From a phage: a DNA stretch of 64,000 bases. The stretch lies in NCBI GenBank assembly GCA_036253495.1, contig GCA_036253495.1_4125.1. One strand, written 5' to 3'. Positions 3,247 through 21,527 of this stretch are shown here, in pieces (the stretch's first letter is position 1; every line of letters starts with the position of its first letter). The position numbers and the translations under genes are program-made. Under the pieces are notes generated by a model. It made no database searches. It was not told where the DNA came from and worked only from the letters and a program-made list of their open reading frames with translations.

Positions 3247-3648
3247 ATGGATCTTGATGATGTGTATAGCACCATAAGACAGATGGATTCGTATAAAAAA
3301 GTATATAGTGGTTACAAGAGTGATAAACAATTTTATGGAATCGGGGAGTATGATGTAATATCATTCGAATACGATGATACTGGTGAAAGTTCCATTAATA
3401 TTGTTTGTCCTCGTGACCGTGAAAATAACTTCATGTACGTTGAAATCAATAATGATGGTTTACACTTTACTAAAATATTAAATGGTGGCAAACAATCTAT
3501 TTCTCTGGATTTATCCGAAGAAGAAAAGTTCTTTCAAGAAGATACTATAATCAATCTAGGTTTTAGTTTATCAGAATACAAAGTTCTTCATAAAGATTTC
3601 ATGAAGTACTATAATGGGTTTCTTAAGGAGCTAACATTACATCTATGA
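3247..3648 (+). CDS. hypothetical protein
   Basis: ORF tightly packed with neighbours; 3' end overlaps the next start (ATGA). Confidence 0.5.
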   Translation: MDLDDVYSTIRQMDSYKKVYSGYKSDKQFYGIGEYDVISFEYDDTGESSINIVCPRDRENNFMYVEINNDGLHFTKILNGGKQSISLDLSEEEKFFQEDTIINLGFSLSEYKVLHKDFMKYYNGFLKELTLHL

Positions 3649-4886
3649 ATAATAACAAATTTCTTGAACAAACAATTGTGAAGCACTTAGCAGGTTCACA
3701 AGCGTATGGAACCAGTACACCTGAAAGTGATACGGATTATCGTGGTATTTTTCTTGCTAACAAAGAGTTCATTCTGACACCTTTTTATAATGTAAAAGAA
3801 GTTTCTGATTCAAGAGAAGAAGATACTAAATTCTATGAACTAAACCAGTACTTAAGACTATACACAGAGGCTAACCCAAATATCCTTGAATCACTATGGG
3901 TTGATCCTGAACACATCGTAGAAAGTACTGAAATCTATGATTATCTACGTACATTCAATCAACAATTACTTAGTTCTAAGATCGCATTCTCTTATACCGG
4001 TTATGCATATAATCAGGTTAAACGTATGTCCAATCACCACGGGTGGATGGATAAAGAGCGTATTGCTGAAAAACGTCTAAATGAAATCTTAGAAGATTTT
4101 CCTGTAGATGAAACTTTAGCATGGATGTATGAAAACTTCCCACACTATTTGGTAGAACGTTTAGATACTTCTAAACTACATCCATTTAATGCTAAGAAAA
4201 TAGATTTTGAAAAATACATGCGTGATACTTCATTGCAGTTAGTTTCGACTCATCCGTTGAAACAGTATCATTTTGTACGTTTAGTACATAATTACAGTAC
4301 TGATAAAGTACTAGACCGTGATTTCAACTTATTGGATTATAACAATGGGTACGAATTAATTCATTACGGTGAAAATATCTTTGGTGTTATTATCAATCCT
4401 AATGAAAGTACAATTAACGCTGATGGTTCTTTACGTTATTTCAACAAAGAACGCAGTACTGAAGAATTGAAAGTGCGACCTGAACTCATTGTTAAATTCA
4501 ATGAAAAAGAATACAGTGAGAACAGTGAGAACCGTAAAAGTTATCACAAATGGAAAGAGAATCGTAATGCTAAACGTGCAATTCTTGAATCCAAACACGG
4601 CTACGATTGCAAACATGCTATGCATACGATCAGACTTTTGAATACAGCCGAAGAAGCATTACAAAGCGGTATTATCCTTGTTAAACGTCCTGATGCTGAT
4701 ATGCTAATGGATATCCGCAACGGTAAATGGAAGTATGAAGAAGTCATGGATTATTTCAATGAAAAGGTTGACTATATCCGCAATGTGGTGTATCCTAAGT
4801 CAGTTCTACCAAAGAAACCAAACATTCAACTAGCTGCAAAAGTTCTAATCGATATTCGAGAAATGCAGTGGTATGGTAAAAAATAA
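3645..4886 (+). CDS. Pol-beta superfamily nucleotidyltransferase domain protein
   Basis: N-terminal G-S-x9-S-D-T-D motif (LAGSQAYGTSTPESDTDYRGIF), typical of the Pol-beta/MNT nucleotidyltransferase fold; 413 aa. Confidence 0.55.
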   Translation: MNNNKFLEQTIVKHLAGSQAYGTSTPESDTDYRGIFLANKEFILTPFYNVKEVSDSREEDTKFYELNQYLRLYTEANPNILESLWVDPEHIVESTEIYDYLRTFNQQLLSSKIAFSYTGYAYNQVKRMSNHHGWMDKERIAEKRLNEILEDFPVDETLAWMYENFPHYLVERLDTSKLHPFNAKKIDFEKYMRDTSLQLVSTHPLKQYHFVRLVHNYSTDKVLDRDFNLLDYNNGYELIHYGENIFGVIINPNESTINADGSLRYFNKERSTEELKVRPELIVKFNEKEYSENSENRKSYHKWKENRNAKRAILESKHGYDCKHAMHTIRLLNTAEEALQSGIILVKRPDADMLMDIRNGKWKYEEVMDYFNEKVDYIRNVVYPKSVLPKKPNIQLAAKVLIDIREMQWYGKK

Positions 4887-4895
4887 GAGGATTAT

Positions 4896-5321
4896 ATGCT
4901 GAATTCAACAATTATTGATGCACTACGTGTACTGAATCGCGAAGTTAGCCGTATCCATAAAAGTACTGATCGTTATAAAGTAATGCATGAAATTAAACTA
5001 GAATTAGAAGCTATCAATAAGGGTGAATGGTTCCTTGAACCAGAATACCGTACACGTGGACCAACTGACGTTGAGAAAGCAATTGCAAAATTCATTTCTG
5101 GACGTTATGGTGATGTATCAGAGGCAGATGTACTGATGAATTTACATTTAACCTCCTTAGAAATTGAAGAAAAATTCAAATTTGATTCACTGGACTGGGT
5201 AGAAATGATCATGGAACTTGAAGATGAATTTAAGGTTGAGATCGAAGATAAGTATGAATCTGGAGATACCAGAATCGTGCATCTCGTTGAACATGTACAA
5301 ACAATGATCGATAAACGCTAA
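4896..5321 (+). CDS. acyl-carrier-protein-like (PP-binding-like) domain protein
   Basis: C-terminal half carries FDSLDWVEMIMELEDEFKVEI, resembling the ACP DSL(D)xVElvMalEeeF motif with the Ser that is phosphopantetheinylated in ACPs. Confidence 0.45.
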   Translation: MLNSTIIDALRVLNREVSRIHKSTDRYKVMHEIKLELEAINKGEWFLEPEYRTRGPTDVEKAIAKFISGRYGDVSEADVLMNLHLTSLEIEEKFKFDSLDWVEMIMELEDEFKVEIEDKYESGDTRIVHLVEHVQTMIDKR

Positions 5322-15260: not shown

Positions 15261-15893
15261 ATGCTATATAATATTGGTATTATGGACGTACCTGGTGATG
15301 GTAACATAAAATCTCCTGATAATAAAATATATAAAACATGGTGTTCAATCTTTGTTAGATGCTATTCGCCAATATCACTAAAAAAACGCCCAACGTATGA
15401 ATTAACCGAAGTATGTGATGAATGGAAACTATATTCAAACTTCAAAAAATGGTATATAAGTAATTATATAGAAGGTTACTTTCTTGATAAAGATATTATT
15501 GATGGTACTTCTAATATTTACTCACCATATACTTGCTCGTTTGTTCCAAACATTATAAATTGTTGTATTTTGGATGGGAATTCAAAAAACTCTAATCTAC
15601 CAATTGGTGTTCATTATAGACCGAAAGGGAAAGATATGGTCAACGAATTTTCGAATCCATATCAAGCAAGACTCTGGAAATATAAAAAACGTGTATCACT
15701 CGGATGTTATCCTACACCATATGATGCACATAAAGCGTGGCAATTTGGTAAGAAAGAATACTTATTAGAATTGATTAACGACTATAGTGATAAAGTTACC
15801 CCTGAAGTTGTTGTCGGTTTACAACGTAGAATTGATATACTAACCGATGATATAAAAAAATGTAGAATTACAAATTCAATCAGTAAAATATAG
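15261..15893 (+). CDS. hypothetical protein, possible AP2-like DNA-binding / homing-endonuclease-like
   Basis: GVHYRPKGK...YQARLW...LGCYPTPYDAHKAW resembles the AP2 domain pattern; no HNH catalytic motif seen. Confidence 0.4.
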   Translation: MLYNIGIMDVPGDGNIKSPDNKIYKTWCSIFVRCYSPISLKKRPTYELTEVCDEWKLYSNFKKWYISNYIEGYFLDKDIIDGTSNIYSPYTCSFVPNIINCCILDGNSKNSNLPIGVHYRPKGKDMVNEFSNPYQARLWKYKKRVSLGCYPTPYDAHKAWQFGKKEYLLELINDYSDKVTPEVVVGLQRRIDILTDDIKKCRITNSISKI

Positions 15894-15898
15894 AGAGG

Positions 15899-16237
15899 TT
15901 GTATATGCTAAATCTAGTTATTCAAGGTAATGTTGATATTACTCCAGCAATCCATGACGCAATTCATCAAGAAGCAAACACTCTAAATAAATTTAGTGAT
16001 TCTTCAGTACTGAATATTGGTGTTCATGTGAAAAAAGAGCATAAGACACAGTACGCAGTAACTTTAACATCAGGTGGTAAGTCTGTTACTGCCGATGATG
16101 CAGATTTATACAAGGCGATTGTCGATTCATTCGAAAAAATGGAAACTGTATTCAGTAAAGACAAAAGCATTAAATTGCACCGCCGAAACCATCCAGACCG
16201 TCCAGTTGTAGTTGATGTAACTGACGAAGAAGAGTAA
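15899..16237 (+). CDS. hypothetical protein
   Basis: ORF followed by a terminator. Confidence 0.5.
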   Translation: MYMLNLVIQGNVDITPAIHDAIHQEANTLNKFSDSSVLNIGVHVKKEHKTQYAVTLTSGGKSVTADDADLYKAIVDSFEKMETVFSKDKSIKLHRRNHPDRPVVVDVTDEEE

Positions 16238-16734: not shown

Positions 16735-16920
16735 ATGGAATATACAATAGGTGCAATAGTATGTATCGCAGCATTATTAGGTGGCATTGGTGTGATGATT
16801 TACTTTGATGCAGAACCCAGTACTGAAATGGGTACAACCCTGGAACTCAAACCTGGCATTAAGGTGAACGACTCTTACTGTTACGATCCACATAGTAATA
16901 AGTATGTGATTTGTTTATGA
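16735..16920 (+). CDS. small membrane protein
   Basis: ATG at 16735 after AGAGG; one hydrophobic TM-like segment. Confidence 0.4.
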   Translation: MEYTIGAIVCIAALLGGIGVMIYFDAEPSTEMGTTLELKPGIKVNDSYCYDPHSNKYVICL

Positions 16921-17327
16921 AAAAGTTTAATATTAAACCGATATTTGATGCTATCGAAATTAAATTGAAAGACCAACGAAAACCCGATGGTACTGGTTTA
17001 TTCTTTAGTTTAGATAGAACCTACGTTGAAACACATGTATCAAGTTTTGATAGAACTGGTAATCTTTTCATCCGTTCATATAACATGTTTTATAGTGAAG
17101 ATGTTTTTATGATAGATATCACTTTAGATGAAAGTATAGGTTTGATGTACATTGAAGATGTTCAATCAAACGATCAACGAAACGGCACACTTCCTATTGG
17201 TGCTACCGAGGAAGAGTTTATGCAATATCAGTTCATTGATGATACCTTTGGTATTGACTTTGTGACATATCAGAGTATAATGCGTGTATACGAACAGTAT
17301 GAGGATTACGTAATTGGACGTTACTAA
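16917..17327 (+). CDS. hypothetical protein, tandem paralog family B copy 1
   Basis: Shares the C-terminal QYxFIDDTFGID(F/Y) motif with the next ORF. Confidence 0.5.
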   Translation: MKKFNIKPIFDAIEIKLKDQRKPDGTGLFFSLDRTYVETHVSSFDRTGNLFIRSYNMFYSEDVFMIDITLDESIGLMYIEDVQSNDQRNGTLPIGATEEEFMQYQFIDDTFGIDFVTYQSIMRVYEQYEDYVIGRY

Positions 17328-17736
17328 AATACCCAAATTCAACGAAACGTTAAAGTACTTTTCTGAACAAGAGTTCAGTACTGAAAGACGTGGTTTAGTC
17401 ACATACAACCAATATCGCGTAATGTATACTAACCAGTTACAAGGAACAGTACGTATTAAAATCCGTAATGCATATGATGATGGTGATGAATTATTAATTA
17501 TACTAAGAAAAAGTAAGATAGAACTACAATACCATAGATTTGATACTTCCGATGAGTTTGCATGGAATGTGTTAGAAAAAAAAGCAGGTTCATTGCCTGT
17601 AGTTGATGATGGACCTGAAGTACTGGCCCAGTATATGTTCATTGATGACACATTTGGTATTGACTATTCTTCATTTCAGTATATACTATCTATACATAAA
17701 CAATATGAATCCCGCTTGCGTGACAGATTAATTTAA
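17314..17736 (+). CDS. hypothetical protein, tandem paralog family B copy 2
   Basis: Paralog of 16917..17327; probable TTG start after GAGGA. Confidence 0.45.
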   Translation: MDVTKIPKFNETLKYFSEQEFSTERRGLVTYNQYRVMYTNQLQGTVRIKIRNAYDDGDELLIILRKSKIELQYHRFDTSDEFAWNVLEKKAGSLPVVDDGPEVLAQYMFIDDTFGIDYSSFQYILSIHKQYESRLRDRLI

Positions 17737-17872
17737 TTGGAGGCTTTATGATTGCAATGTTAGAAGAAGATTGGGGTGTTTCTGAACAAGGAACCGACGA
17801 ATATCAAGTTCCAGAATACAAGCCAAAAGGCTTCTGGGAAAGTCTGCGTGATTGGTTGATGGGAGAATAAGA

Positions 17873-18985
17873 ATGAAAAAATACCTTGTTGGTGGATACT
17901 GCCGCGACCGTCTAATGGGCATTCGTGCAAAGGACAAAGATTATGTCATTGTTGGTGCAACTGAATCTGATATAAAATACTTAGAAAGTATTGGATATAA
18001 ACAGGTTGGTAAAGATTTTCCAGTTTATCTAAGCCCAGAAGGTAACGAACACGCATTAGCCCGTACTGAACGAAAAACTGGTACTGGATACGGTGGCTTC
18101 GAAGTGGATACAAAAGGTGTAACACTGGAACAAGATTTGTATCGTCGTGATCTTACAATTAATGCAATCGCGTATGATCCAGTACTGCAAATTCACATCG
18201 ACCCATACGGTGGTAAAGCTGATATCAAGAATAAAGTACTACGCCATGTATCCGAGCACTTCAAAGAAGATCCATTGCGTGTATTACGTCTAGCTCGCTT
18301 TGCTACGCGTTATTCTGATTTCTCTATACACGAGACTACTGAAGCACTTGCAATCGATATGGTAGCGTCTGGTGAGCTAAATCACCTTGTTCCAGACCGT
18401 GTTTATGTTGAATTTGAAAAGGCATTGTCAGAAGAGAAGCCAGCTAAGTTCCTTAAAACACTAAGTAAGTTGGGTTACTATGAAAAAGCATTTAATGCTA
18501 CATTAACCAAAAAGTCATTGGAACTCATTGATCATATCTCTGATAATTGTACTGAAGCATATAAGCCATATTTCTTATGGTCTGTGCTTCTTGAGAAAGA
18601 AGAAGTTGGCGAGGATTCAGTACTGAATGGTGCTATTAAAATGCCCGTTAAGTACGTTAAATTCAGTAATTACATCAAACGTTTCCGTGATGATATCAAG
18701 GCATTCCGTAAAAAGACCCCAAATGAAATGGGACAATTATTACTGGATATGAATATCAAGAATAACGGCGGTGAAGAATTCCTTTACAAAGTACTGGAAT
18801 ATTTTATTCTACGTAAAGAGATTGATTTAGACCTTGAAGATTTAATCATTAAGGTATATGATCGTTACACTGATGTAGTACTTCCAGATATTCAACAACT
18901 GGTAAAAGACGGTGAGTTAGAAGCATCTGAAATCCGTGATTTTGTTTCAGATTTACGTTGTGAAGCAATTCAACAAATGTTTTAA
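17873..18985 (+). CDS. tRNA nucleotidyltransferase (CCA-adding enzyme) / poly(A) polymerase head-domain family
   Basis: LVGGYCRDRLMG...DKDY head-domain motif and RRDLTINAIAYD; ATG at 17873 after GGGAGA. Confidence 0.75.
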   Translation: MKKYLVGGYCRDRLMGIRAKDKDYVIVGATESDIKYLESIGYKQVGKDFPVYLSPEGNEHALARTERKTGTGYGGFEVDTKGVTLEQDLYRRDLTINAIAYDPVLQIHIDPYGGKADIKNKVLRHVSEHFKEDPLRVLRLARFATRYSDFSIHETTEALAIDMVASGELNHLVPDRVYVEFEKALSEEKPAKFLKTLSKLGYYEKAFNATLTKKSLELIDHISDNCTEAYKPYFLWSVLLEKEEVGEDSVLNGAIKMPVKYVKFSNYIKRFRDDIKAFRKKTPNEMGQLLLDMNIKNNGGEEFLYKVLEYFILRKEIDLDLEDLIIKVYDRYTDVVLPDIQQLVKDGELEASEIRDFVSDLRCEAIQQMF

Positions 18986-19058: not shown

Positions 19059-19488
19059 ATGCGTTATAGTTGTGGCATTATATTTTATCGTGATGGTCAG
19101 ATACTTGTTGGACACACAACACGGACAGAAGCATTGGGATTTACCAAAAGGTAAAACCGAGGGCAATGAAACATTTGCTGAAGCTGCTGTTCGTGAGTGC
19201 TATGAAGAAACAGGATTTGAGATTGATGAAAAGGATCTTCTCTTATTAGGTGATGTATCATACAGGAAAGGGAAAAGATTAGTTTTATTTTTCTATACAG
19301 CTAAATACAAACCCGAACCGGATGAACTGAAGTGTAACAGTACTTATACCAATCGATATGGTAAAAGCCATCCAGAATTGGATAAATTCATGTACATTGA
19401 TGTTCAAGATTGTCAAAAGTATTTGACCGAACGAATGTGTAACAGTATAATTAAAGCTGTTAAATTGTTTCAAAAAAATAAAGGATAG
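19059..19488 (+). CDS. Nudix hydrolase, reading frame interrupted by an apparent 1-nt insertion near 19122
   Basis: Frame 0 from the ATG at 19059 gives MRYSCGIIFYRDGQILVGHTT... then stops at 19152; the Nudix box GKTEGNETFAEAAVRECYEETGFEI continues in the +1 frame. Confidence 0.55.
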
Positions 19489-19492
19489 TTAT

Positions 19493-19741
19493 ATGAAAGT
19501 GAAAATTTATGGTCGCACGACTGGTTGTAATTTCTGTGATACAGCAAAAGCAATTTGTGAGAACAATTCATTTGAAATGGATTTTATCGATGTGGTTTCT
19601 GAAGGTATTGATGGTGCTAAACTATCAGAAATTTGCGGTGAGCCAGTTCGTCAAGTTCCACAAATTTTCGTAAATGATGAGTATGTTCCTGGTGGATGTA
19701 CTGGTTTTGTTAACGGGCTAAAAGAAGGTCGCTGGAACTAA
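19493..19741 (+). CDS. nrdC: glutaredoxin/thioredoxin-like protein (T4 NrdC-like)
   Basis: 82 aa with an N-terminal C-N-F-C redox motif (GCNFCDTAK). Confidence 0.6.
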   Translation: MKVKIYGRTTGCNFCDTAKAICENNSFEMDFIDVVSEGIDGAKLSEICGEPVRQVPQIFVNDEYVPGGCTGFVNGLKEGRWN

Positions 19742-20328: not shown

Positions 20329-20808
20329 ATGATACATGAACATAGCGGCAATCTGTTTGATTTATTCAGTACTGTTACTGATGATCAAACCGCGTTGCAT
20401 ATAATCGCTCATGGTTGTAATGCACAGGGTAAGATGGGTTCGGGTTTTGCAAAAGAATTAAGAAAGCGTCACCAATTGGCATATGATGTGTATCATACAC
20501 GTTATACCAATCAGAATGGTTTGAAATTGGGTGAAGTTGTCTATGCAGCACCAAATAATAACTTAATTATTGCAAACTGCATTACACAAGAGTATTATGG
20601 TAATGATGGTAAGAAGTATGTAAGTTATGATGCGATTGACCTTGCATTTAACTCGATGAATGAATTCATTAAAAATGAACCACAAGAGATCCATGTACAC
20701 TTCCCGAAAATTGGAGCCGATTTAGGCGGTGGTAACTGGAACGTTATCAAAGAAATCATTGACCACAGGCTGGTTAATGCTGAAAAACATTTATATATTC
20801 TCAAATAA
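20329..20808 (+). CDS. macro-domain-like protein (ADP-ribose binding/processing candidate)
   Basis: ALHIIAHGCNAQGKMGSGFA resembles the macro-domain AIVNAAN..L.GGGGV..AI loop, with a later Gly-rich FPKIGADLGGGNW segment. Confidence 0.4.
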   Translation: MIHEHSGNLFDLFSTVTDDQTALHIIAHGCNAQGKMGSGFAKELRKRHQLAYDVYHTRYTNQNGLKLGEVVYAAPNNNLIIANCITQEYYGNDGKKYVSYDAIDLAFNSMNEFIKNEPQEIHVHFPKIGADLGGGNWNVIKEIIDHRLVNAEKHLYILK

Positions 20809-21149: not shown

Positions 21150-21527
21150 ATGGCTGCTAATGAAGTGAAAGCAAAAACTATTCAAGCTATCGTAGTACTG
21201 AAAGGTAAAACCCCATCACCAAAAGAATTGGTTATGGCTGGCATGACTATGCTACATCAGTACAACCCAGCATCCCCTAACTATGTTCAAGAATATGAAG
21301 CCAAACAGTTTAAAGCTCATTGGGATTCATGGATTAAAGACAATGAACTGGAACAAGTTGTCTATGAAGCAGATGACATGGATGAAATGATGCAGATTGA
21401 ATATCTTGCGAATCAGCAGTCAGTACCACTAAGTATGTTTGGTAATGGGGAAGAGGTTCTAGTACTCGGCCCCTTCACTAAAAAAGATATTGAACACATT
21501 GTCACTAACTGTACAAAGATAAGTTAA
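21150..21527 (+). CDS. hypothetical protein
   Basis: ORF; no motif recognised. Confidence 0.5.
   Translation: MAANEVKAKTIQAIVVLKGKTPSPKELVMAGMTMLHQYNPASPNYVQEYEAKQFKAHWDSWIKDNELEQVVYEADDMDEMMQIEYLANQQSVPLSMFGNGEEVLVLGPFTKKDIEHIVTNCTKIS

What the first reader, a model, noticed from the sequence alone, without database searches (positions are those of the whole stretch)
17873..18985. Phage-encoded CCA-adding enzyme without tRNA genes in the window
The protein has a clear head-domain motif (GGYCRDRLMG...DKDY). Phage CCA-adding enzymes are thought to repair tRNA 3' ends damaged by host or phage nucleases. No tRNA gene was found in this 64 kb by eye, so its substrates may be host tRNAs or tRNAs encoded elsewhere.
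Basis: partly seen in the sequence, partly recalled or inferred. Interest (0 to 1): 0.35.

Follow-up and report, generated by a model that had tools for sequence, protein, structure and literature searches.

The report
Jumbo-phage CCA-adding enzyme, already known
This is a real, intact gene for the enzyme that puts the CCA end on transfer RNAs. It sits in a giant E. coli phage whose tRNA genes lie outside this window, and the same gene is already annotated in related phages, so the finding is correct but ordinary.

Summary
ORF 17873..18985 (+) encodes a 370-aa class II tRNA nucleotidyltransferase, and ARAGORN finds no tRNA gene in the 64 kb.

**Enzyme identity**
- All five catalytic motifs and the flexible loop needed for A-addition are conserved with gammaproteobacterial Cca.
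- A confident AlphaFold model (pLDDT 94.6) superposes over its full length on solved CCA-adding enzymes.
- The C-terminal half is a diverged helical body and tail. It has no HD phosphohydrolase domain, so the "multifunctional ... phosphodiesterase/phosphatase" label on relatives is unsupported.

**The missing tRNA genes**
- The window comes from an Asteriusvirus-like jumbo coliphage, 98% identical to phage A4 over this stretch.
- The absence of tRNA genes is a window artefact. A4 and 121Q each carry 7 tRNA genes about 170-180 kb from cca.
- Earlier scan notes place a tRNA cluster in this same genome.

**Likely substrates**
- In six cca-bearing relatives, 29 of 65 tRNA genes lack an encoded CCA, so the enzyme has direct phage substrates.
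- T4 has no cca, yet 4 of its 8 tRNA genes also lack CCA. The phage enzyme is therefore a supplement to host Cca, not a necessity.

The gene was already described for RaK2 (2013) and for jumbo phages in general (2021). No activity has been measured. Interest is low.

The parts
17873..18985 (+). cca gene: 370-aa class II tRNA nucleotidyltransferase (CCA-adding enzyme) without an HD domain; coordinates include the stop codon
17861..17866 (+). GGGAGA Shine-Dalgarno. The stop of the upstream 40-aa ORF (17748..17870) lies 2 nt before the ATG, which suggests translational coupling
17891..17953 (+). Motif A, GGYCRDRLMGIRAKDKDYVIV (aa 7-27), with the catalytic carboxylates D21 and D23
   Evidence: D23 is invariant and D21 at least 90% conserved in 58 homologues
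18020..18100 (+). Flexible loop region (aa 50-76, ...ALARTERK...). It is kept at the length seen in bacterial Cca, with a 1-residue difference
   Evidence: alignment; the role of the loop in A-addition is established knowledge
18143..18166 (+). Motif B, RRDLTINA (aa 91-98)
   Evidence: R91, R92 and D93 invariant
18200..18247 (+). Motif C, DPYGGKADIKNKVLRH (aa 110-125)
18266..18301 (+). Motif D, EDPLRVLRLARF (aa 132-143), the EDxxR nucleotide-templating residues
   Evidence: E132, D133 and R136 invariant
18395..18427 (+). Motif E, DRVYVEFEKAL (aa 175-185)
18488..18982 (+). Lineage-specific helical body and tail region (aa 206-370). It has no Pfam or PDB sequence match, no HD motif and only one His. 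It contains the phage-clade motif KNNGGEEFLYKV (aa 296-307)
19093..19488 (+). Context: Nudix hydrolase gene directly downstream. The cca-nudix-glutaredoxin order is conserved in all six relatives examined
19493..19741 (+). Context: glutaredoxin gene
20329..20808 (+). Context: macro-domain protein gene
   Evidence: weak Pfam hit; phrog_335, E 2e-45
15899..16237 (+). Context: HPF/RaiA-type ribosome-associated factor gene upstream
3645..4886 (+). Context: RlaP-family RNA-repair nucleotidyltransferase gene
   Evidence: PF10127, E 1.8e-16

Best explanation
The gene encodes a working, template-independent CCA-adding enzyme (class II tRNA nucleotidyltransferase) of a RaK2/121Q-like jumbo coliphage.

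**Origin and structure (shown).** The catalytic head and neck derive from the gammaproteobacterial Cca lineage. The C-terminal half is a diverged helical body and tail that would hold the tRNA acceptor/T-arm. There is no HD phosphohydrolase domain, so the protein is a plain CCA-adder and not the 'multifunctional' E. coli type.

**Role in infection (inferred).**
1. It completes the 3' ends of the phage's own tRNAs whose genes lack CCA, after 3' trimming by host nucleases.
2. It rebuilds CCA ends of phage and host tRNAs that are nibbled or cut.

This would top up or replace the host's non-essential repair enzyme. It would act alongside the phage's other translation-maintenance genes (Rnl1 ligase, Pnk, RlaP, HPF, Pth2).

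**Shown:** gene, family, motifs, fold, absence of HD, tRNA genes in relatives and their missing CCA ends. **Inferred:** enzymatic activity, substrates and timing.
For: **Family and motifs**
- Pfam finds the head and RNA-binding domains above cut-off.
- NCBIfam CCA equivalogs score 203-273 bits on residues 1-209, against 89 bits for PcnB and 64 bits for the A-adding enzyme.
- phrog_2244 matches over the full length, E 7e-114.
- Motifs A-E and the flexible loop are conserved with HD-containing bacterial Cca. There are 40 invariant columns across 58 homologues.

**Fold**
- The AlphaFold2 model has pLDDT 94.6 and pTM 0.87.
- Foldseek's best hits are the T. maritima CCA-adding enzyme, alone and with tRNA (3H38, 5HC9). 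TM is 0.72 over about 390 columns, so the tail is aligned too.

**tRNA substrates**
- A4 and 121Q each have 7 tRNA genes.
- 29 of 65 ARAGORN-called tRNA genes in six cca-bearing relatives lack an encoded CCA.

**Context**
- Rnl1 is present in A4 and 121Q.
- RlaP, HPF, Nudix and macro genes lie in the window.
- The synteny around cca is conserved in all six relatives examined, which span three named genera.
- The same reading appears for RaK2 gp031 (PMC3622015) and for jumbo phages in general (PMC7824862).
Against: - No activity has been measured for any member of this phage clade, as far as the papers searched show.
- The protein scores below the curated cut-offs of every NCBIfam CCA equivalog, because the C-terminal half does not match.
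- In class II enzymes the C-terminal part influences whether CCA or poly(A) is made (Betat et al. 2004, recalled from my own knowledge). A diverged tail therefore leaves some room for altered specificity.
- T4 has no such gene, yet 4 of its 8 tRNA genes lack CCA. Host Cca can evidently do the maturation job, and the selective benefit of a phage copy is unproven.
- The tRNA genes of the window's own genome could not be read here.
Confidence: 0.82

Rival explanations
1. The enzyme's main selected role is counter-defence. It would rebuild tRNA 3' tails removed by host or competitor immune nucleases that target the CCA end, such as Cas12a3-type tail cleavage. The adjacent Nudix and macro enzymes might clean up blocked ends. 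Maturation of phage tRNAs would be secondary.
For: - Tail-cleaving immunity exists, and its authors say phage countermeasures are unknown (PMC12851939).
- cca sits in a conserved block with Nudix, glutaredoxin and macro genes in all six relatives examined.
- The genome family carries a full tRNA-repair kit: Rnl1, RlaP, and Pnk according to RaK2 paper PMC3622015.
- Iyer et al. list CCA-adders among jumbo-phage RNA-repair genes.
Against: - Cas12a3 can cut up to and including the discriminator base. A CCA-adder cannot restore that base.
- No such system is shown for E. coli hosts of these phages.
- Gene adjacency in a tightly packed phage genome is weak evidence.
- No experiment exists.
Confidence: 0.12
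2. The enzyme has a changed specificity: poly(A) polymerase-like, A-adding only, CC-adding only, or acting on a non-tRNA RNA. The cause would be its lineage-specific C-terminal half.
For: - The C-terminal 170 aa have no sequence match in Pfam or PDB.
- The fold search also returns the A-adding enzyme, the CC-adding enzyme and PAP I with TM 0.6-0.66.
- Domain-swap work shows that the C-terminus matters for specificity (recalled from my own knowledge).
Against: - The catalytic half is 55-60% identical to true Cca. It scores about 184 bits higher on the CCA model than on the PcnB model.
- The flexible loop that CC-adders have lost is intact.
- The best structural matches are full CCA-adders.
- The phages carry CCA-less tRNA genes that need all three nucleotides or at least CA.
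Confidence: 0.05
3. The gene is a decaying or functionless passenger picked up from a host.
For: It lost the HD domain relative to the enterobacterial enzyme.
Against: - The gene is intact at the same length, 367-374 aa, across dozens of phages down to about 50% identity, with all catalytic residues invariant.
- 72 phage records hold a full-length copy.
- Its position is syntenic across genera.
- HD-less Cca enzymes are normal in many bacteria.
Confidence: 0.01

Closest known systems
Orthologues in RaK2/121Q-like jumbo phages: Escherichia phage A4 A4_536, 121Q gp539, Klebsiella phage RaK2 gp031 and K64-1 gp036
   Same: - Same gene at the same syntenic position. Protein identity is 98% to A4. 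DNA identity over the region is about 82% to 121Q.
- It is annotated there as tRNA nucleotidyltransferase or CCA-adding enzyme.
- The RaK2 paper already proposed maturation of the phage's own tRNAs.
   Different: - A4 has an HNH homing-endonuclease gene inserted directly upstream, which the window lacks.
- Several records label the protein 'multifunctional ... phosphodiesterase/phosphatase', which the sequence does not support.
Gammaproteobacterial multifunctional Cca (NCBIfam PRK10885, the E. coli type, about 410 aa)
   Same: Head and neck match over profile positions 1-202, with 55-60% identity. Motifs A-E and the flexible loop are conserved.
   Different: The phage protein lacks the HD domain (HPEIDTG...HDLGK block) and has an unrelated C-terminal sequence. 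Its score of 273 bits is below the 451-bit cut-off. No 2',3'-cyclic phosphodiesterase or phosphatase activity is expected.
Thermotoga maritima CCA-adding enzyme (PDB 3H37-3H3A; 5HC9 with tRNA)
   Same: It is the best sequence match in the PDB (E 5e-21) and the best structural match (TM 0.72 over the full length). Both are HD-less with head-neck-body-tail architecture.
   Different: Identity is only 21-23%. The tail sequence is unrelated.
Phage T4 tRNA maturation using host Cca
   Same: T4 is a coliphage with a small tRNA cluster in which some genes lack an encoded CCA, 4 of 8 in the control here. It carries Rnl1 and Pnk repair genes.
   Different: T4 has no PolyA_pol-type gene and depends on the host enzyme (established knowledge). 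The jumbo phage brings its own.

Membership tests
Class II tRNA nucleotidyltransferase (CCA-adding enzyme, Pol-beta superfamily) | Head domain with motif A (GGxxRD ... DxD carboxylates) | tested here: met
   GGYCRDRLMGIRAKDKDYVIV at aa 7-27. Pfam PF01743 scores E 6e-18.
Class II tRNA nucleotidyltransferase (CCA-adding enzyme, Pol-beta superfamily) | Motif B (RRD), motif C, motif D (EDxxR templating residues) and motif E | tested here: met
   RRDLTINA at 91-98, DPYGG..D at 110-117, EDPLR at 132-136, DRVYVEFEK at 175-183. These are invariant in 58 homologues.
Class II tRNA nucleotidyltransferase (CCA-adding enzyme, Pol-beta superfamily) | Flexible loop between motifs A and B retained (it is deleted in CC-adding enzymes) | tested here: met
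   The loop aligns with HD-containing bacterial Cca with a single-residue length difference, and ALARTERK is conserved. The functional meaning of the loop comes from the literature (own knowledge).
Class II tRNA nucleotidyltransferase (CCA-adding enzyme, Pol-beta superfamily) | Head-neck-body-tail architecture with a helical tRNA-binding C-terminus | tested here: met
   AlphaFold2 pLDDT 94.6. Foldseek TM 0.72 over about 390 columns to 3H38 and 5HC9.
Class II tRNA nucleotidyltransferase (CCA-adding enzyme, Pol-beta superfamily) | Template-independent addition of exactly C-C-A to tRNA 3' ends | not testable with these tools
   Needs an enzyme assay.
NCBIfam PRK10885, multifunctional CCA addition/repair protein (E. 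coli type) | Whole-protein score above the curated cut-off (451 bits) | tested here: not met
   272.9 bits, matching only profile positions 1-202 of 409.
NCBIfam PRK10885, multifunctional CCA addition/repair protein (E. coli type) | C-terminal HD phosphohydrolase domain (H...HD...D metal site) | tested here: not met
   No PF01966 hit, even at E up to 10, on aa 201-370. The HPEIDTG/HDLGK block is absent in the alignment. There is one His and no HD dipeptide in aa 200-370.
Poly(A) polymerase I (PcnB, TIGR01942 / PRK11623) | Score above the family cut-off | tested here: not met
   88.9 bits against a cut-off of 305.65, and 45.3 bits against 702. Both are far below the CCA models.
PHROG phrog_2244 (phage tRNA nucleotidyltransferase) | Full-length profile match | tested here: met
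   E 7.1e-114, residues 1-369 on profile positions 3-387 of 392.

The most novel reading that the evidence does not exclude
The HD-less Cca of RaK2-like jumbo phages may be a dedicated counter-measure against immunity or competitor toxins that attack the tRNA 3' CCA tail, such as Cas12a3-type tail cleavage. Its conserved Nudix, glutaredoxin and macro neighbours could help to clean damaged or blocked ends. A Nature 2026 paper states that phage countermeasures to this class of defence are unknown. The many 'one-step-decayed' CCA ends in these phages' tRNA genes (N-CAA) would then be a side effect of carrying an abundant CCA-adder.
Probability: 0.12. Interest if true: 0.55.

Novelty: already known. 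Interest (0 to 1): 0.15.

Why it matters
As a gene call it adds nothing new. The orthologue is annotated in dozens of GenBank jumbo-phage records and was discussed in print in 2013 and 2021.

Three modest points are worth keeping:
1. The common annotation 'multifunctional tRNA nucleotidyltransferase/2',3'-cyclic phosphodiesterase/2'-nucleotidase/phosphatase' on these phage proteins is an over-transfer from E. coli Cca, because the HD domain is absent.
2. Every cca-bearing relative examined has tRNA genes without an encoded CCA (18-55% of them). This gives the enzyme concrete phage substrates.
3. tRNA-tail cleavage is now known as an immune strategy. An abundant, easily expressed phage CCA-adder is a cheap candidate to test as a countermeasure.

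Tried and rejected
**Steps that led nowhere**
- The whole genome of the window is not held.
- An exact-protein look-up of the window's Cca found nothing. The 99%-identical P0001 lies on a 351,638-bp contig filed under E. coli, but that record cannot be searched here.
- An exact 56-nt pattern from the gene was not found in IMG/VR.
- Public runs holding the stretch were found.
- PF09414 (Rnl2-type ligase) gave only a sub-threshold hit in A4.
- The promoter scan was uninformative: 37 sites found against 37.3 expected by chance.

**Ideas considered and rejected**
- An HD domain hidden in the C-terminus.
- A new non-NTase C-terminal domain. The fold search shows the usual body and tail.
- CCA-less tRNA genes as proof that the phage cca is needed. 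The T4 control shows otherwise.

Full report
**1. Observation**

The + strand has an ORF from 17852 to 18985. The ATG at 17873 is the likely start.
- It gives MKKYLVGG..., the N-terminus of every homologue.
- A GGGAGA Shine-Dalgarno sits at 17861-17866.
- The stop codon of a conserved 40-aa upstream ORF (17748..17870) lies 2 nt before the ATG.

The product is 370 aa, and the quoted motif GGYCRDRLMG...DKDY is at residues 7-24. ARAGORN finds no tRNA or tmRNA gene in the 64 kb. Both parts of the observation are confirmed.

**2. What the protein is**

Sequence evidence:
- Pfam finds the PolyA_pol head domain (E 6e-18) and the PolyA_pol RNA-binding 'neck' (E 2e-7), both above their cut-offs.
- NCBIfam's CCA equivalogs score 203-273 bits, but only on residues 1-209. 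That is profile positions 1-202 of 409 for PRK10885, the E. coli-type multifunctional Cca. All are below the whole-protein cut-offs.
- PcnB scores 89 bits and the A-adding enzyme 64 bits.
- phrog_2244 'tRNA nucleotidyltransferase' matches end to end (E 7e-114).

An alignment with phage homologues and HD-containing bacterial Cca and a 58-sequence alignment show all class II motifs:
- Motif A at 7-27, with D21 and D23.
- Motif B, RRD, at 91-93.
- Motif C at 110-125.
- Motif D, EDPLR, at 132-136.
- Motif E at 175-185.
- The loop between A and B (ALARTERK...) is kept at bacterial Cca length, with one residue of difference.

There are 40 invariant columns, and coordinates were checked. That CC-adding enzymes have lost this loop, and that EDxxR templates CTP and ATP, is knowledge from the tRNA nucleotidyltransferase literature and was not tested here.

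**3. The C-terminal half**

- From about residue 206 the phage proteins stop aligning with bacterial Cca. The block holding the HD metal site (HPEIDTG...HDLGK) is missing.
- Residues 201-370 hit no Pfam family, even at E up to 10, and no PDB sequence.
- Residues 200-370 contain one histidine and no HD dipeptide.
- An AlphaFold2 model from the 58-sequence alignment is confident throughout (pLDDT 94.6, pTM 0.87, all-helical C-terminus).
- Foldseek places the whole chain on solved class II enzymes. T. maritima CCA-adding enzyme 3H38 and its tRNA complex 5HC9 give TM 0.72 over about 390 columns. B. stearothermophilus and human mitochondrial CCA-adders, the A. aeolicus A-adder and E. coli PAP I follow at TM 0.6-0.7.

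The C-terminus is therefore the usual body and tail, diverged in sequence, and not a new domain or an HD domain. The label 'multifunctional tRNA nucleotidyl transferase/2'3'-cyclic phosphodiesterase/2'nucleotidase/phosphatase' carried by the A4 and Serratia phage BF orthologues is not supported.

**4. Whose gene it is**

- The region is 97.8% identical to Escherichia phage A4 (Asteriusvirus, 355.5 kb) and about 82% identical to 121Q, PBECO4 and similar phages. Over the first 18 kb, identity to A4 is 98.2%.
- tblastn finds homologues in 416 phage records, 72 of them full length. These are RaK2/121Q-like jumbo phages of Escherichia, Salmonella, Klebsiella, Serratia, Erwinia, Cronobacter and Xanthomonas. 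Most are annotated as tRNA nucleotidyltransferase.
- The order lysozyme, HPF/RaiA, small ORFs, cca, Nudix, glutaredoxin, then macro-domain protein is kept, in whole or large part, in A4, 121Q, SD-15_S21, K64-1 (Alcyoneusvirus), Serratia phage BF (Eneladusvirus) and SE_PL.

**5. The 'missing' tRNA genes**

- No whole genome is held for the window.
- A4 and 121Q each have 7 Rfam tRNA hits, in one cluster. In A4 the cluster is at 304.0-307.1 kb and cca at 136.7 kb. In 121Q the cluster is at 72.7-78.0 kb and cca at 257.1 kb.
- K64-1, SD-15_S21, SE_PL and BF have 7, 7, 12 and 32 hits respectively.
- Earlier notes of this scan place tRNA genes of this same genome 163-167 kb before the window start, and an Rnl1/Pnk pair 38 kb before it. 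These are leads that I tested only in relatives.

The absence of tRNA genes from the window reflects where the window falls in a roughly 350-kb genome.

**6. Substrates**

I read the 3' ends of the ARAGORN-called tRNA genes. Genes lacking an encoded CCA:

| Phage | CCA-less / total |
|---|---|
| A4 (Asn, Thr) | 2 / 6 |
| 121Q | 3 / 6 |
| K64-1 | 3 / 7 |
| SD-15_S21 | 3 / 6 |
| SE_PL | 2 / 11 |
| Serratia BF | 16 / 29 |
| Total | 29 / 65 |

- These tRNAs cannot be charged until C-C-A, or at least C-A, is added. The enzyme therefore has direct phage substrates.
- Of the 29, 27 still have a C after the discriminator (18 read CAA). They look like one-step decay products of CCAA.
- Control: T4 has no PolyA_pol-type gene, yet 4 of its 8 tRNA genes lack CCA. 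Classical work shows it uses host Cca (own knowledge).

CCA-less tRNA genes therefore do not prove that a phage cca is needed. The phage copy most plausibly raises capacity or gives independence from the host's non-essential repair enzyme.

**7. Context**

- The window also holds an RlaP-family RNA-repair nucleotidyltransferase (3645..4886, E 1.8e-16).
- It holds an HPF/RaiA homologue (15899..16237), a Nudix hydrolase, a macro-domain protein and a weak Pth2-like ORF.
- A4 and 121Q encode a T4 Rnl1-type RNA ligase.
- The RaK2 paper lists a CCA-adding enzyme, Pnk, RNA ligase and Pth2 together, and proposed maturation of the phage's own tRNAs (PMC3622015).
- Iyer et al. 2021 list CCA-adders among jumbo-phage RNA-repair genes (PMC7824862).

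**8. Mechanism and rivals**

Most likely (about 0.8), this is a genuine CCA-adder that matures CCA-less phage tRNAs and repairs shortened 3' ends. Rivals:
- **Counter-defence (about 0.12).** The primary role would be to counter tail-cleaving immunity. Cas12a3 cuts tRNA CCA tails, and its authors call phage countermeasures unknown (PMC12851939). Cuts that remove the discriminator cannot be mended by a CCA-adder, and nothing links this system to these hosts.
- **Altered specificity (about 0.05).** The diverged tail could change what is added or to which RNA.
- **Relic gene (about 0.01).**

No paper found reports an activity assay for a phage enzyme of this clade.

**9. Verdict**

The gene is already known and widely annotated, so interest is low. 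Useful by-products are the correction of the 'multifunctional' annotation, the count of CCA-less tRNA genes in relatives, and a cheap testable link to tRNA-tail-targeting defences.

Noticed in passing
L001:4881-5948 (phage A4, 135622-136689), corresponding to window 17870/17873: A4 carries a 355-aa HNH/homing-endonuclease gene (phrog_559, E 9e-51; annotated 'hypothetical') inserted directly upstream of cca and overlapping its start. The window and 121Q lack it. It looks like a free-standing homing endonuclease that has targeted the cca locus.
   Followed up: partly
window 15261-15893: A 210-aa ORF between the lysozyme and HPF genes matches only the C-terminal half of HNH endonuclease phrog_953 (E 6e-59, profile positions 198-403 of 420). 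It has no counterpart at this position in A4 or 121Q. It is possibly a truncated homing endonuclease.
   Followed up: partly
window 4886-4896 versus A4 119610-123024: A4 has two tail genes ('putative tail fiber' and 'tail protein I', 3.4 kb) between the RlaP-type nucleotidyltransferase gene and the next ORF. The window has only a 9-nt gap there. This is an indel of receptor-binding genes between 98%-identical phages.
   Followed up: no
window 3645-4886: A 413-aa RlaP-family (PF10127) RNA-repair Pol-beta nucleotidyltransferase. It is a second RNA-end nucleotidyltransferase, 13 kb from cca.
   Followed up: partly
window 15899-16237: A ribosome hibernation factor homologue (HPF/RaiA, PF02482, E 4e-10). 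It is annotated 'putative sigma 54' in A4 and conserved next to the lysozyme gene in BF, SE_PL and 121Q.
   Followed up: no
window 16917-17327 and 17314-17736: Two overlapping tandem paralogues (phrog_20693, unknown function) just upstream of cca. They share a C-terminal ...Q(Y)xFIDDTFGID(F/Y)... motif (BLASTP E 2e-11).
   Followed up: partly
window 21150-21527: A 125-aa ORF with a weak, sub-threshold resemblance to Pth2 peptidyl-tRNA hydrolase (PF01981, E 5e-4, 20.6 bits against a cut-off of 23). It belongs to phrog_14786, of unknown function. Earlier notes report a clear Pth2 gene elsewhere in this genome.
   Followed up: no
L015, L016, L027-L033 (tRNA clusters of A4, 121Q, K64-1, SD-15_S21, SE_PL, BF): 27 of the 29 CCA-less tRNA genes keep a C after the discriminator (18 CAA, 5 CTA). 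CCA-encoding genes are usually followed by A. The CCA-less genes therefore look like single-step decays of CCAA, and the tRNA-Thr(UGU) end A-CAAAATA is identical in A4, 121Q and SD-15_S21.
   Followed up: partly
L015:1114-1192 and L016:1586-1664: A weak Rfam tRNA hit (32.6 bits) that ARAGORN misses lies directly after tRNA-Ser(UGA) in A4 and 121Q. It has an encoded CCA and a CTTCTAA loop where the D-arm should be. This agrees with earlier scan notes on a rearranged tRNA-Arg(UCU).
   Followed up: no
L024:3370-3777 (Serratia phage BF): In BF the gene after glutaredoxin is annotated 'aspartyl-tRNA amidotransferase subunit B' (GatB/YqeY-like). It is another translation-related gene in the same block.
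   Followed up: no
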